A stretch of 64,000 nucleotides of DNA from the NCBI GenBank assembly GCA_037379345.1, contig CM074511.1:53264862-53328861 (forward strand). Reading direction: 5' to 3'. Position 1 is the first letter of the stretch. Every line of letters begins with the position of its first letter. The position numbers are program-made. Source of the stretch: Perna viridis. Its lineage: Eukaryota. Positions 18,001 to 39,000 of the stretch are shown here, piece by piece.

Positions 18001-21000
18001 GTTTGCCTTCTTAAGCACTATTCCTGCACGGCTTGACTACTTTCCTTATTTTCCATCGCTTTACATCGATGGACAGCAACCCTTGGCTAAGTAGTTGCTT
18101 GCCTGGTCTCCATGTAAGTAGTTGTTGGTTTACCATGTTGTTGCTGTTGACTACCAAACTGAAGGAGGTGAGATTTTTCCTATATATAGCATGTAATATA
18201 TAGCTAATCTATAACCATGCAGCCATTCTTTCCACACATAATTTCATATATGAGTGTATTTGCTATATATTCATAATTTTTTCAACATATTTTGTTTTTC
18301 AAAATTTAACCTTTTATATTACTTAACTCATCGAGACTTCTTTTTTTTAAAAACGTTTTTGATGTATCAGTATTTTTTATTTTTATCTGTCTTTTGGTAT
18401 AATAGTCTTGAAAATTAATTTTTTAGCATTGAAGTAAAATATTATTTTCAGTACACATACAGTATACATAATATTCTGACAAATGTCAAGATTATTACAT
18501 GGTTGCAGTTGTATTGCTATAGTGTGGGCTATCATTGCAGTGCTTTGCTTAAACATTTTTAAAGGTCACTCTATCAACCAAGAATGAATAATATTTGAAA
18601 TCATTATTTATAAGGAAAGCAATTCCTGGATTTACTTCTCTACATTGATGTTGTGTAAATCTTGTCAATTCCTTACCAGTGGCAATGGTGAAAATGTAAA
18701 TAAGTCATATGACATATTTAAAATGTTACCATTCTATGGTGTTGTTAGAGAGAACTTTCTTGCTTGATTTTAGAGATAAACATCTGTTGATATCAGCAAT
18801 ATAATTTTGAATTGGGTAATAATCTCAAATTTCTGATGGTGATAGTGGCATACTACTTCACAAATGTGAAGAAGCTCAGCTGTGCATGGCAAATTATCAT
18901 AATCTTGGCTCCTTCAGTCACAGTTTTTGTAGAAATTAGATGTTTTTATCACATTCTTGGCCCTTTTTACAAAATCCAGGATTGGTATTTTAAGTGGTAA
19001 ATGGAAAAAAAATACATAAATTGTCCTCTAAGAATAAAATAACTGCAAGAATTTAGAAAAAGCTAGCTTATGTTATCTGTTACTTGTACATGTATATCAT
19101 TAACTGACTAAAGTAGTAGCTATGTATAATATAAATGTATGGATTTCTATATGGACTAGTATTATACAAACATAGCTATGATATCAGCATAAAATGCTTA
19201 AAATGTAGCTTTGTTCTAATCTTTGCTTGGCCTAACCATTGTTATGGCTTTAATCCTACTTGGCTTGGGTAACACAAATGGTTGGAAGTTGGTTGGTACA
19301 CTAGTAGTGGTAATTCAACAGATTTTGAGAGAAAGCACATGTATATGCTTGTGATGGCACGGTGTTAATACTGGCACATTTTTTATGCTGTGGTTTATGC
19401 TAGTATAGAATATTTCATATAGTGATATATTTTCTGACCTAGTAGTATAAAGATTATTTGATTTATTTTATTTGATTCGCATTGCACTTTTTGCAAAGTT
19501 GTGTATCAAAACTGAAATGTTCCCTTGGATTGCTTGTTACTATTGGCATCTTACTTTATTTCCTCGTATTTTAGATTTATGACAGGAAATTGAAACAGTA
19601 CAGGACAAGTTTAGAGGACATTGATGCAGCACTTATACAAAGTATGACTAAGAAACAGAAACGTGAGGAAGGTGCTGATAGAGTCAAGAATGAGCTAGAT
19701 GATGTTAACCAACATTACATGGATATGGTCAAATGGATTAGTAACAGACTCAAAGAGATCACAAGAATTCTGTCAGAATCTAATGTTAACTTAAAGGTTA
19801 GTCAAAGAAACATTTTTCTATTAAATTGATGGCTACTATTTACTAAACTATAAAAGTTAGAAAAGGCATTATACTATTTATAGAGTAAACTAAACTGTCT
19901 ACTGTATGTTAAGTTATCAGAAAACAGAAACCCCCTTTTGACATACCAAAAATACATCACAACAAATGAAAACCAATATTTTCAAGCTGAAGATGAAAAG
20001 AAAATAGATTGGAAAAAAATAAGTATCTTTATTCAACAAAACAGAAAGAATAATATATAGATTATGTTGTGCAGTTCTTTTATATTTATGAACTTCTATT
20101 TCAGTTGTTCGTTAGTTTGCAGAACTTTAATGATGCAGTTGAAGAAATGAATCTCATTTACCAATCAAACTCATATATCAGAAAAAATAAAATTATACAC
20201 ACAAATGACTAACATTTTGTTGACTACTGACAGGAAGGAACCTTATCATTTTTAGATATGCTTTTACTTTCCTGTTTGTGGTTTCTCTTAATAATGCAGA
20301 AATATTGCACATACTTTGAAGAAATACTTAATGATAGATTCATTTCAAAACAATATTTAATAATTTTGTTGATTTGCCTTTGTTTTCCAGTTTCAAATGG
20401 TAATAGATGAAGAAATTCCATTACTACGTACATTCCGCGCTGAGCTGGCCAAGAGATCATCAATGTTAGTGGATGAAGACATGGAAGGGTTCTTCCACCA
20501 ATTGTCTGAGTTCGAAGGTTACCCAGCTCCCCTTACTGTTTCCAATGGATATGGTGGCCAATCATTTGTCAGCAAAGTAACTGCTATGACAGTTGAACCT
20601 CCAGTGGAACGTCCTCTAGGTACCTCCACACCACGAGGCATAAGTGTTAAAACTCATAGCACAATGGACAGTATGGATGTCACTGAGGCTCCAAGGGTAC
20701 AGAAAAGAATGATATCACCCCCACTATTGGCACCAAACAGACTATCTAAGAAGGTAGCTAGTATCACAAGTGTTCAGGCATTACACCAAGCCTCACCTCC
20801 AGAAGACCATGTGACACAGAGTTCTCAGATACTAGTGACAGTGAAACAGGAGGCCATAGCTCCTACTAAAATGACATTATATGTATCAGCTATTCTTAAC
20901 CCTCACACAGGAAGACAAGTTAGTTTAGTGGATGCTATCAAAACTGGACTGTTTGATTCTAGAACTGGATTTTACATTGATCCATTGACTGGTAGAAGAC

Positions 21001-36000: not shown

Positions 36001-39000
36001 TATGTCAACCAAGACAGAGCAGAACAAACGAAAGCAATTCAACCAGCCTCAGTTTGGCATTCAGAGGGCTGTTGAACAAGGAATTTTTGAAAAACATCGT
36101 TGCACATTCCATGACCCTAGAACTAACATGTCAGTAACTTTAGGAGAAGGTCTAAAAACTGGATTGATCCATGGAACAAGATCTAGAGTGAAAAATCCAG
36201 AAACTGGGAAGTATGTATCACTTACAGAGGCTACTGACAAAGGGATAATAAGTGATAAAACAGCCTCTATGTTAGATAGGAAGCATATGAAGACATACCC
36301 ATTGGAAAGAGCGATCGAGGAACAGATGGTCCTTGATGTACCATTCACTAGGGTTACACTTGATGAAGCTGTATATTATGGTTTATTAAACATGCATACA
36401 CTTAGAATGCAAAGTATGACAAGTGATGATAGAGTTCCACTTCCTGAAGCCATTGTAATTGGACTTGTAGACAATGAAGATACCCTCATCAAGGACCCTG
36501 TTAGTGGAGACCTTATGACATTAACCAAAGCAGTGGATTCTGGTATATTTATTCCACAAACAGCACAATTAAAAACCATTGATGATAAAAAGTTAGGATT
36601 ACTTGATGCCATTGAACAAGGTTATGTGTTAAATGGGCGTAGTTTATGTAACAGCTTCAAAATGTCAAATATGAGACAAAGATCTAGCAATAGTCATTCA
36701 AACCAGAGCAGTTTGGAATCTGGGGATAAAATACTGTCACCTGATCTTACTTGCAAACCAATAAAGTTTGGGGAAGCTCTTCGATTTGGCCTTATAAATT
36801 CTGATACTATGGACTTTGTACTCCATGATCGATCATACACACTGCTAAAGGCTATTGATGAAGGTCTTGTAGATGTAGCAAATGTGTCATTTTATGATGA
36901 AACATCTGATGAAAGAATACCACTAGCCTTAGCTCTGAGATCAAACATGGTAGGCACAGAGGATCAAACACTACCAGCAGGAATCAGTTTCAAGGCAGCA
37001 TTGGATCGAGGTCTCTTAGTAGAGAGGTTAACTCCAGCAGTAAAGGAAAATAAACCTGTATCTGAAAACAAAATAGATGACAGTAAACCAGAGGTTACTA
37101 TTGACACACTGCTCAAGTCAGTATCACAAGAAAGCTTTAGAATTGGAACTCTGGCAAATGCTATTCAGAAAGGGTTACTTGATGATATAACTGGAATGAT
37201 TAAAGATCCATTCACTGGGAAACTGCTCACTATACAGGATATGATCCAAAACCATCTAATCAGACCTTATGTTAAAGAGATATGGTCAGGAGACAACCTT
37301 ATTACTCTATCTGATGCCATCAGTAGAGGAATTATAAACCCTGTTGATGGGAAATATCTTGACAATGGAACCTGGAAACCTATTACATCTGATTATGTAA
37401 GTGACAGTATGGCTTCTTCTAATTTGTCAGATCAAATGGATGCTAAAAGCTCTGTAGAAATCTATGTTGAAGAGATACTCACCAGTGACCAAAATAGGAT
37501 CAAGTTAAGAGAGGCATTCTCTTCTGGAATTCTAAACCAATCCAATTCAAAAGTAATTGATCCAGACACAATTCAGCCAATCACACTGAAGCGTGCAGCA
37601 AGTCTTGGTATGATTGATAATAATACTGGAGATTTCAAAAACCCACAATCAGGAGAGACTATAAGCTTAGCAGAAGCAGTGTCAAAGGGATTCATCTTAA
37701 CACCAAAGGGCTTAAGTCTCTATAGTGCAGTCAACCAGGGCCTTTATGATGGAGAAAATAGAACATTTGTTGACCCAAGCACTGGAAAGGAACACTCACT
37801 TAGAGAAATGATTGAGATGGAAATTGTTACTTCACAGTGTCAAGAGGTTAGAGACCTAGCAAAGGAAGGCATTATAATTACTTTACAGAAAGCAATAGAT
37901 AGAAAAATTATTGAATGGAATGAAAATGTCTATGTGAATCTCATGGACAACAATGTATACAATTTCAATGATGCAATTGCTGCTGGTTTGATAGTAAGTA
38001 ACATACCAAGAGAAGGGTTACGGGAAAGTCAGAATAGTGATATACAGTTCCGTGTGCCAAGTCCTCACAGTTTTGACCATACAAGATATAAGTGCATGGC
38101 TGAAGCACCAATTGGACCTATGTTGATGAAGCCACCACCTTTGAATCGTTCTCGTGCAAGTAGTTCCTCAGACTTATCCAATACTGATTCCTCAGGTACA
38201 GACAAAGATGGTCTTTCATGGCTACTACCCTTGTCATCTGATGCAATACGTGATATCATAGCAACAGCTAAGTGTAAAAAGGAGGCTTCTAAGATGGATG
38301 ACAGCATTGATGGGAAAACAAATGGTGAAAGACCTGATTCCAGTGATGATGAGGGATATAAACCAGATCAGAAACCATTGTCAGAACTGAAAGCTCCAAA
38401 GATAAAACCACCCAAGCAAGATCTGCTGAGGACAGTACTAGAAAATAAAATGACGGCTTTACGGAAGGTAGGAAGCTGAAGCATGGGAGATAACTCATTG
38501 TGTGATGAAAGCTTTTTTGTGCTTTGAATGAATCAATCTTGACATATGAATGAAACAATCGTTTGCAACCTTAACTACTGTGTATTGTAACCTTTTGAAC
38601 CTGTCATCTGCAACATATTAATGTGTTTCTGCTTAACAAATTTGGAGTATAAAAGCATGTGACTTCAGTTTCTATTATTTTCGGCATGATGTCTATAACA
38701 AAGAAATATGATACTTGCCAACCTTACGTTTCAATGCTTTGACATGAACCGTTCCTGCATGGTGTTTACAAAGGCAGAAGTTTACTTTAGTTTTCCTTTG
38801 TTTGAACTTGGATCCTTAGTGCTTTATTATGTTAGACAATTGTATTATTGCATTATGACATTTTACTGTACATTGATTTTAATGTAAGTCAATATTTACT
38901 TTTGCATGTGATTTGATATGATTTGTGTGATATTAAGAAAGATCCAGTTTCTGATCTAAAAAAAAAAAGTATGCTAATATGGAAATTCAAAGCAGTATGA

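What the first reader, a model, noticed from the sequence alone, without database searches (positions are those of the whole stretch)
20391..38467. Two tandem giant, independently skippable plectin-repeat exons (11.1 kb + 5.1 kb)
Seen: two uninterrupted exons of 3,695 and 1,701 codons lie between the plakin domain (E21) and the rod (E24), and every flanking junction is phase 0. Four in-frame combinations are therefore possible (none, E22, E23, both), changing protein length by up to ~5,400 aa. Known: Drosophila Shot and vertebrate MACF1b/BPAG1b carry their internal plectin-repeat region essentially on one large alternative exon. Inference: a second, sequence-divergent giant cassette may give this lineage an extra set of junction- or intermediate-filament-binding isoforms.
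Basis: partly seen in the sequence, partly recalled or inferred. Interest (0 to 1): 0.72.

Follow-up and report, generated by a model that had tools for sequence, protein, structure and literature searches.

The report
Two giant plakin-repeat exons, mussel spectraplakin
A mussel-type cytoskeletal linker gene carries its plakin-repeat region on two huge neighbouring exons that are both real and conserved in other bivalves, but whether they are spliced in and out separately is still untested.

Summary
Two open frames of 3,734 and 1,707 codons are bounded by consensus splice sites that give exons 20391-31475 (3,695 codons) and 33365-38467 (1,701 codons), all phase 0. Both match Pfam Plectin PF00681 (1e-230 and 7.6e-34). 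They lie between plakin-type and rod-type spectrin repeats.

The gene is a spectraplakin (Shot/MACF1/dystonin type) of a bivalve close to Mytilus.

The layout is not peculiar to this genome:
- A Mytilus coruscus "DST" model splices E22 to E23.
- A Dreissena model runs E22-like, then E23-like, then rod.
- 18 of 46 hits are stand-alone E23-sized ORFs, and 17 of these keep a phase-0 K/Q|GT-type end.
- 8 of 67 hits match E22 end to end.

One related model joins E20 directly to E24, skipping E21-E23. That fits an optional block like the Shot and MACF1b repeat regions.

Independent skipping of E22 and E23 is unsupported. Phase 0 is the gene's default (17 of 24 introns), and no E21-E23 or E22-E24 junction was seen.

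Verdict: a modest new variant of a known kind. Interest is low to moderate.

The parts
17713..17796 (+). E20, the last exon shared with the repeat-less architecture (28 codons, phase 0/0)
   Evidence: Sequence aAG|GCT...AAG|GTAAAA. In P0119 its counterpart ..QYIREAK is joined directly to the E24 counterpart GRLADSYEKL...
19575..19796 (+). E21, a 74-codon helical exon just upstream of the giant exons. It probably travels with the cassette.
   Evidence: ttttAG|ATT...AAG|GTTAGT, phase 0/0. It precedes the E22 match in Candidula P0062 and P0068 and is absent from P0119. No Pfam family reached its cutoff.
20391..31475 (+). E22, giant plakin-repeat exon of 3,695 codons. Module A is residues 1-1749, followed by a Ser/Thr-rich linker, then module B from about residue 1840 to 3695.
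   Evidence: ORF; splice sites; PF00681 at 1e-230. 8 of 67 hits align end to end at 31-42% identity. Mytilus coruscus P0096 is 69% identical over the last 2,284 aa. About 47 non-overlapping repeat matches (63 raw) with a self-trained HMM. Desmoplakin 5dzz_A at 1.2e-9.
25635..25643 (+). Donor-like GTG|GTAAGT inside E22, phase 0 (module A would end at 25637 = 1,749 codons)
   Evidence: Codons F-V|V-S-P. The position matches the ..[FY]SG|VS ends of 7 of 7 A-type stand-alone ORFs and the point where the Dreissena model leaves module A. Mytilus keeps FVVSP. The hexamer count alone is not above chance: 3 observed against 2.6 expected.
31476..33364 (+). Intron between E22 and E23 (1,889 nt, 26% GC)
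   Evidence: No repeat remnant and no homology to 11 related proteins. No AATAAA and one ATTAAA at 33243. The E22 frame runs on 34 codons to the stop at 31575-31577.
33365..38467 (+). E23, the second giant plakin-repeat exon of 1,701 codons (module C), with a non-repeat basic tail (residues about 1561-1701)
   Evidence: ORF; sites; PF00681 at 7.6e-34, with no single stretch significant alone. About 25 repeats with the self-trained HMM. Only about 21% identical to E22. 18 of 46 hits are E23-type ORFs at 30-78% identity. AlphaFold2 of residues 250-850 gave pLDDT 85.1. Top three Foldseek PDB hits are desmoplakin and envoplakin repeat domains, but TM is at most 0.19.
38468..41090 (+). Intron between E23 and E24 (2,623 nt)
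   Evidence: No homologous ORF and no repeat or protein match. The Dreissena model passes directly from the E23-like end to E24.
41091..41237 (+). E24, the first rod exon (49 codons, phase 0/0). It starts a spectrin repeat.
   Evidence: ttcAG|GGT...AAG|GTACTG. Weak match to PF00435 positions 5-44 of 105 (18.2 bits, below cutoff). Aligned to P0003 and P0119.
42422..43690 (+). Large rod exon used as a search probe (spectrin repeats)
   Evidence: PF00435 at 2.7e-18 and PF25034 at 3e-9. Aligned to P0003 and P0119.

Best explanation
The region is the plakin-repeat region of a spectraplakin gene (orthologue of Shot/MACF1/dystonin) of a bivalve close to Mytilus. It is coded by two conserved giant exons. 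E22 holds two repeat modules (A and B) joined by a Ser/Thr-rich linker. E23 holds a third, more divergent and more acidic module (C).

The exons sit at a boundary between spectrin repeats, after the plakin domain and before the rod. Including them inserts up to 5,396 residues of beta-hairpin/helix repeats into the linker protein without breaking neighbouring folds.

The two-exon layout is inherited, not new to this genome. The most likely use is as one optional block (E21+E22+E23) that is either spliced in, giving a giant Shot-PH/MACF1b-like isoform, or skipped (E20 to E24), giving the classical rod isoform.

Shown: the ORFs, splice consensus, phases, repeat identity, conservation of both exons and of their ends, and the junctions present in relatives' models.

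Inferred: that the block is optional in this species, and that the repeats tether the protein to junctions or intermediate filaments, as described for other plakin repeats.
For: - ORFs and sites.
- PF00681 for both exons. Plakin-type and rod-type spectrin repeats on either side.
- E22-type ORFs align end to end in 8 of 67 hits.
- E23-type stand-alone ORFs make up 18 of 46 hits. 17 of the 18 end with [KQ]|V a few to about 35 residues before their stop, as expected from a conserved phase-0 AAG/CAG|GT donor.
- Mytilus coruscus 'DST' P0096 joins ..STPFDE|VGALEND.. at the homologous E22/E23 boundary.
- Dreissena P0003 joins module A to an E23-like module, then ..EERQ|QLSDSHDKL.. to E24.
- P0119 (4,995 aa) follows the window's exons from 2131 to 63848 at 34-88% identity. 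It joins E20 directly to E24.
- Against a Mytilus-level relative, E23 is 78% identical (P0070, which is 94% identical to P0096 over 110 aa). The B part of E22 is 69% identical, so E23 is under at least as much constraint.
- The E23 fold model is confident (pLDDT 85.1, pTM 0.77). The only PDB matches, by profile or by fold, are plakin repeat domains.
- Published precedent for an optional internal repeat exon: PMC2173965, preprint 10.1101/122010, PMC4914211.
Against: - No transcript data could be consulted. Every junction comes from automated gene models or ORFs of other organisms.
- P0119 is unnamed and of unknown taxon. Its E20-E24 join could be a prediction artefact, or that species may lack the repeats.
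- 17 of the 18 E23-type ORFs are unnamed, so the breadth ('bivalves') rests on two named species plus identity tiers.
- The land-snail model P0062 goes from A+B straight to E24 with no C module. C is therefore either lost or skipped there.
- Foldseek TM-scores are very low (at most 0.19), so a canonical globular repeat domain is not shown.
Confidence: 0.72

Rival explanations
1. One reading: E22 and E23 are independently skippable cassettes. They would give four (or, with the internal donor at 25637, more) repeat-region isoforms with different binding properties.
For: - All junctions E20/E21/E22/E23/E24 are phase 0.
- E24 starts a spectrin repeat, so any combination keeps the folds intact.
- Modules are combined differently in relatives' models: A+B|C here and in Mytilus, A|C in Dreissena, A+B without C in Candidula.
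- Drosophila uses an internal donor near the start of its giant exon (PMC2173965).
- A donor-like GTG|GTAAGT sits at the homologous module A end.
Against: - Phase 0 is the default in this gene: 17 of 24 resolved introns.
- No E21-E23 or E22-E24 junction was seen in any model examined here.
- Differences between species may reflect gain, loss or mis-annotation rather than splicing.
- GTAAGT hexamers are no more frequent than codon shuffles predict.
Confidence: 0.25
2. One or both giant exons also serve as last exons, as in BPAG1e and VAB-10A. If the donor is not used, translation stops soon after: 34 codons after E22 and 3 codons after E23. This would give plakin-like proteins that end with the repeats.
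For: - Stops at 31575-31577 and 38477-38479.
- Repeat-terminal isoforms exist in dystonin and vab-10 (PMC3352950, passages; PMC2173965).
Against: - There is no AATAAA in the 1,889-nt intron after E22. The first AATAAA after E23 is about 1.5 kb downstream.
- The read-through tails are not conserved among E23-type ORFs (VGS*, VGN*, VNKKHGT*, longer unrelated tails).
- In introns of 26-30% GC an early stop is expected by chance.
Confidence: 0.1
3. The repeat region is constitutive in this lineage. E21-E24 are always spliced in series, and the intron between E22 and E23 is just an intron.
For: The Mytilus and Dreissena models include the giant exons in series.
Against: P0119 lacks E21-E23. [quoted passage not shown]
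Confidence: 0.08

Closest known systems
Drosophila Short stop plakin-repeat exon (Shot-PH and related isoforms)
   Same: An internal repeat region between plakin domain and spectrin rod, coded by a giant exon (10,497 nt) and included by alternative splicing. The repeats are irregularly spaced and not grouped as 4.5-repeat domains (PMC2173965; preprint 10.1101/122010). Insect repeat regions align to modules A, B and C at about 22-24% identity.
   Different: Here there are two giant exons (11,085 + 5,103 nt) totalling 5,396 residues, against about 3,000-3,500 in one exon. Drosophila's second repeat-bearing exon is short (2 repeats). Molluscs, unlike flies, have cytoplasmic intermediate filaments (recalled, not tested).
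Vertebrate MACF1b / BPAG1b internal plakin-repeat region
   Same: The same position in the protein. [quoted passage not shown] It is an optional insert of about 2,000 aa (PMC3352950).
   Different: The vertebrate repeats form recognisable A/B/C-type repeat domains. Here the fold model does not superimpose on them (TM at most 0.19). There are also two exons here rather than one.
Dystonin's two separate repeat regions (BPAG1e C-terminal and BPAG1b internal) and C. elegans VAB-10A
   Same: One gene with more than one repeat-coding block on different exons, placed between the plakin-domain and rod exons (preprint 10.1101/122010; PMC3352950).
   Different: In those genes one block ends the protein. 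Here both exons have conserved phase-0 donors, and relatives' models splice onward to the rod.
Annotated bivalve models: 'DST' of Mytilus coruscus (P0096) and DPMN_073948 of Dreissena polymorpha (P0003)
   Same: Orthologous exons. P0096 is 69% identical over E22 and 82% over the E23 start, with the same E22/E23 junction. P0003 has an E23-like module (33%, 733 bits) spliced to E24.
   Different: Both are partial automated models. Dreissena leaves module A at the internal donor position and shows no module B. None of the five literature searches for this turned up a paper that describes the layout.

Membership tests
Plakin/plectin repeat (Pfam PF00681) | Sequence match above the curated cutoff | tested here: met
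   E22 ORF 745.7 bits, E23 ORF 115.7 bits, cutoff 20.5. For E23 no single stretch passes alone. The E23-family profile hits only plakin repeat domains in the PDB (1lm5_A 1.7e-4, 4qmd_A 4.4e-4, 5dzz_A, 2n03_A).
Plakin/plectin repeat (Pfam PF00681) | Repeat unit of a beta-hairpin followed by helices | tested here: inconclusive
   AlphaFold2 of E23 residues 250-850 (pLDDT 85.1) shows serial hairpin plus short (about 6-residue) helix units. The best Foldseek hits are desmoplakin 5dzz (4.5e-5), 1lm7_A and envoplakin 4qmd_A, but TM is 0.08-0.19 and rmsd about 20-29 A.
Canonical plakin repeat domain (4.5 repeats, types A/B/C) | Regular groups of 4.5 contiguous 38-residue repeats forming a globule | tested here: not met
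   Repeat start spacing is irregular in both exons: 14-267 residues in E22 and 21-140 in E23. There is no global superposition on solved domains. The same has been reported for invertebrate spectraplakins (PMC3352950).
Canonical plakin repeat domain (4.5 repeats, types A/B/C) | Basic groove that binds intermediate filaments | not tested
   Only bulk charge was computed. All modules are acidic, C most so (pI 4.75 for its repeats).
Spectraplakin gene (Shot/MACF1/DST/VAB-10) | Plakin-domain spectrin-like repeats upstream and a spectrin-repeat rod downstream on the same strand | tested here: met
   Upstream exons give PF21020 1.2e-8 and PF00435 7.5e-9, plus PF21019 8.5e-3 (16.9 bits, below its 24.4 cutoff). 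Downstream exons give PF00435 2.7e-18 and 1.5e-9, and PF25034. The exon-by-exon match to P0119 runs from 2131 to 63848.
Spectraplakin gene (Shot/MACF1/DST/VAB-10) | N-terminal calponin-homology actin-binding domain; C-terminal EF hands and GAR domain | not testable with these tools
   The window ends inside the rod (P0119 residue about 4200 of 4,995). Only a 36-aa exon (2131-2238), 89% identical to the N-terminal part of a CH-bearing Candidula model, is in the window. It has no Pfam hit of its own.
Optional internal repeat cassette (Shot-PH / MACF1b type) | Giant exon(s) between plakin domain and rod | tested here: met
Optional internal repeat cassette (Shot-PH / MACF1b type) | Transcripts both with and without the exon(s) | not testable with these tools
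   Only indirect evidence is available. Relatives' models contain the repeats (P0096, P0003, P0062) or lack them (P0119, E20-E24).
Repeat-terminal isoform (BPAG1e / VAB-10A type) | Conserved stop and polyadenylation signal after the repeat exon | tested here: not met
   Stops follow both donors but the tails are not conserved. There is no AATAAA in 31476-33364.

The most novel reading that the evidence does not exclude
Bivalve spectraplakins may hold a three-module combinatorial repeat system. Module A would end at a conserved internal 5' splice site (25637|GTAAGT). Module B would be a read-through extension of the same exon, and module C a separate giant exon descended from the C-terminal third of the ancestral protostome repeat region. 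Tissue-specific choice among none, A, A+B, A+C, A+B+C and C would then tune how the linker attaches to junctions and to the cytoplasmic intermediate filaments that molluscs, unlike flies, possess.
Probability: 0.2. Interest if true: 0.55.

Novelty: new variant of a known kind. Interest (0 to 1): 0.33.

Why it matters
Spectraplakin internal repeat regions are poorly understood. In flies they cannot bind cytoplasmic intermediate filaments, and in mammals their role is barely studied.

A lineage that has both cytoplasmic intermediate filaments and a very large repeat region (5,396 residues) split into separately splicable, differently conserved modules would be a natural system for asking what the modules do.

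As it stands, the result is mainly an annotation and comparative point. The giant exons are genuine, conserved and already captured in part by public gene models. The attractive claim of combinatorial skipping rests only on reading-frame compatibility, which is the norm in this gene.

Tried and rejected
- **Rod-exon probe.** The search with rod exon 42422-43690 and 'longer' covered only proteins of 742-2,115 aa. It gave 3 distant hits and no isoform context.
- **Length limit.** The search for homologous proteins reached only proteins up to 5,000 aa. Full-length annotated mollusc isoforms could therefore not be surveyed.
- **Representative search.** It gave 402 hits, but only P0119 was both close and long. 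The other long representatives are about 19-22% identical with lengths typical of vertebrate MACF1/DST. I left them unused because they are unnamed and could be human.
- **The listing of cluster members.** Their taxa stay unknown, and I did not pursue this by other means.
- **PDB by sequence.** phmmer of E23 alone against the PDB found nothing.
- **Splice hexamers.** GTAAGT/GTRAGT counts inside the exons are not above the codon-shuffle expectation.
- **Introns.** Neither intron (31476-33364, 38468-41090) holds decayed repeats or homology. A recently split single exon is therefore not supported.
- **E23 as an alternative first coding exon.** It starts with ATG, but Mytilus has VGAL.. at this place.
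- **Terminal-exon use.** See the rival explanations.
- **Charge analysis.** It gives no clear functional split.
- **Collections not used.** Paper supplements are closed, so the isoform figures and tables of preprint 10.1101/122010 were not seen.
- **Joined models.** All searches were exon by exon.

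
Full report
**Observation**

The + strand holds two exceptional stop-free frames, 20373..31577 (3,734 aa) and 33356..38479 (1,707 aa). The third longest ORF in the 64-kb window is 443 aa.

Read directly, the frames are bounded by ttttccAG|20391, 31475|GTAAGA, ttttcAG|33365 and 38467|GTAGGA. This gives exons of 3,695 and 1,701 codons. The neighbouring exons E21 (19575-19796, 74 codons) and E24 (41091-41237, 49 codons) also begin and end in phase 0.

The exons are richer in G+C (36-41%) than the introns (26-33%). 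The window has no N. It is not human: about 31% GC, and its best named relatives are molluscs.

**What the exons encode**

Both frames match Pfam Plectin PF00681 far above the cutoff: 745.7 and 115.7 bits against 20.5.

A 34-residue repeat HMM trained on the two exons themselves finds 63 matches in E22 (about 47 after removing overlapping registers) and 26 in E23 (about 25). The repeat density is therefore similar, about one per 60-80 residues, and the spacing is irregular.

E23 is only about 21% identical to any part of E22. The two halves of E22 are about 25% identical to each other.

By single sequence, E22 hits desmoplakin, plectin and periplakin repeat domains in the PDB (5dzz_A, 1.2e-9). 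E23 alone hits nothing. A profile of 19 E23-type sequences hits only plakin repeat domains (1lm5_A 1.7e-4, 4qmd_A 4.4e-4, 5dzz_A, 2n03_A).

An AlphaFold2 model of E23 residues 250-850 is confident (pLDDT 85.1, pTM 0.77) and consists of serial beta-hairpin plus short-helix units. Foldseek ranks desmoplakin and envoplakin repeat domains first (4.5e-5, 2.7e-3, 8.8e-3), but TM-scores are at most 0.19. The unit is therefore plakin-repeat-like, while the canonical 4.5-repeat globule is not reproduced. The literature says the same of invertebrate spectraplakins (PMC3352950, passages; PMC2173965, passages).

**The gene**

Upstream exons carry plakin-domain-type spectrin-like repeats (PF21020, PF00435; a sub-cutoff PF21019 match). 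Downstream exons carry spectrin repeats (PF00435, PF25034). An unnamed 4,995-aa representative, P0119, matches the window exon by exon from 2131 to 63848. This is a spectraplakin.

The nearest named relative is Mytilus coruscus. Its 'DST' model P0096 is 69% identical over the last 2,284 residues of E22 and 82% identical over the first 92 aligned residues of E23.

**Is the two-exon layout special?**

All searches were made exon by exon.

With E23 as query, 18 of 46 hits of similar length are stand-alone E23-type ORFs:
- P0070 and P0071: 78% and 76% identity
- P0072-P0075: 41-45% identity
- P0076-P0087: 30-35% identity
- Overall lengths run from 1,705 to 2,138 aa.

Seventeen of the 18 end with [KQ]|V a few to about 35 residues before their stop. 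That is what a conserved phase-0 AAG/CAG|GT donor read into the intron would give.

Among the 67 longer hits, 8 align to E22 from its third or fourth residue to near its end (31-42% identity).

P0096 joins ..STPFDE|VGALEND.. exactly at the homologous E22/E23 boundary. The Dreissena polymorpha model P0003 contains an E22-type part (43%), then an E23-type part (33%, 733 bits). It then joins ..EERQ|QLSDSHDKL.. to E24 and the rod.

Three more distant giant ORFs (P0004, P0005, P0088) carry an E23-specific core flanked by low-complexity sequence.

In windowed comparisons, the C-terminal third of the Manduca and Blattella repeat regions scores two to three times higher against E23 than the rest of those proteins does. 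There it equals or exceeds the scores against E22. This hints that module C is old.

The land-snail model P0062 has both halves of E22 but no E23-specific part, and goes straight to E24.

Neither intron holds decayed repeats.

Against a Mytilus-level relative, E23 (78%) is better conserved than the second half of E22 (69%).

**Skipping**

P0119 joins the E20 counterpart (..QYIREAK) directly to the E24 counterpart (GRLADSYEKL..) and lacks E21, E22 and E23. E20 (17713-17796) is phase 0/0. E24 begins a spectrin repeat (PF00435 positions 5-44, a weak match).

This fits the published rule that spectraplakins splice in an internal repeat region (preprint 10.1101/122010, passages). It also suggests that E21 belongs to the optional block.

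For independent skipping I found no evidence beyond frame compatibility. A crude homology-guided chaining put 17 of 24 resolved introns in phase 0 (13 of 20 outside the cassette). Four of the 28 exon pairs could not be resolved. Four phase-0 junctions in a row are therefore unremarkable.

**A further layer seen in passing**

Seven of 46 hits are ORFs that match only E22 residues 1 to about 1730. All seven end ..[FY]SG|VS... Dreissena leaves module A at the same place.

At the corresponding place the window has GTG|GTAAGT in phase 0 (25635-25643). Mytilus keeps FVVSP amid diverged flanks. An internal 5' splice site inside E22 is thus possible, although GTAAGT is no more frequent in E22 than codon shuffles predict (3 against 2.6). 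Drosophila offers a precedent: a cDNA with a short exon made of the start of the giant exon (PMC2173965).

**Rivals**

Terminal-exon use is not favoured, because the read-through tails are unconserved and there is no AATAAA after E22. An internal start at the ATG that opens E23 is also not favoured, because that ATG is absent in Mytilus.

**Literature**

Three searches turned up no paper that describes the layout: 'spectraplakin' + 'bivalve' found 0 papers, 'plectin repeat' + 'mollusc' found 2, and a broader search was also run. One of the two papers, PMC9145010 (passages read), notes plectin repeats in mollusc spectraplakins without exon analysis. The other I saw only as a search listing.

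**Limits**

- There are no transcript data.
- No eukaryote genome collection was available.
- Proteins over 5,000 aa were not searchable.
- Paper supplements are closed.
- Most orthologous ORFs are unnamed.

**Verdict**

The finding is real and correctly measured. It is a conserved bivalve variant of the known optional plakin-repeat region. The claim of independent skipping remains a hypothesis.

Noticed in passing
window 25635-25643 (inside E22): A phase-0 GTG|GTAAGT lies exactly where the stand-alone module-A ORFs of other taxa end (..[FY]SG|VS) and where the Dreissena model jumps to the E23-like module. It is a possible internal 5' splice site. The hexamer frequency alone is at the chance level.
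   Followed up: partly
window 19575-19796 (E21) and 17713-17796 (E20): The repeat-less relative P0119 joins E20 directly to E24, so E21 seems to belong to the optional block rather than to the constitutive plakin domain. E21 precedes E22 in both Candidula models.
   Followed up: partly
window 33354-33364: There are two in-frame acceptors 9 nt apart (tatAG|33356 and ttttcAG|33365). Homology with Mytilus (..FQ|VGAL) favours 33365.
   Followed up: partly
window 31476-31577: The E22 frame continues for 34 codons past the donor into a hydrophobic, Cys-rich tail (..LIGLMVCC..) before TAA. No AATAAA follows within the intron.
   Followed up: partly
window 33365-33367: E23 opens with ATG right at the acceptor. 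Mytilus has Val-Gly there, so an internal translation start is unlikely to be conserved.
   Followed up: partly
window 20397-20480 (start of E22): A non-repeat motif (M)VIDEEIPLLRTFRAELAKRSSMLVDEDM is almost invariant at the start of all E22-type and A-type ORFs, even at 31-45% overall identity. [quoted passage not shown]
   Followed up: no
P0004, P0005, P0088 (unnamed proteins): These more distant E23-type giant ORFs carry 1,100-1,800 residues of repeat-free, low-complexity sequence after the E23-like core.
   Followed up: partly
P0010 (Manduca) residues about 3000-4484; P0006 (Blattella) about 2100-3301: The C-terminal third of insect repeat regions scores as well or better against module C than against A or B. 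The remaining two thirds favour A or B two- to three-fold.
   Followed up: partly
window 22997-23458 and 24968-25543, minus strand: Antisense ORFs of 153 and 191 aa lie inside E22. They are most likely by-products of the long sense frame.
   Followed up: no
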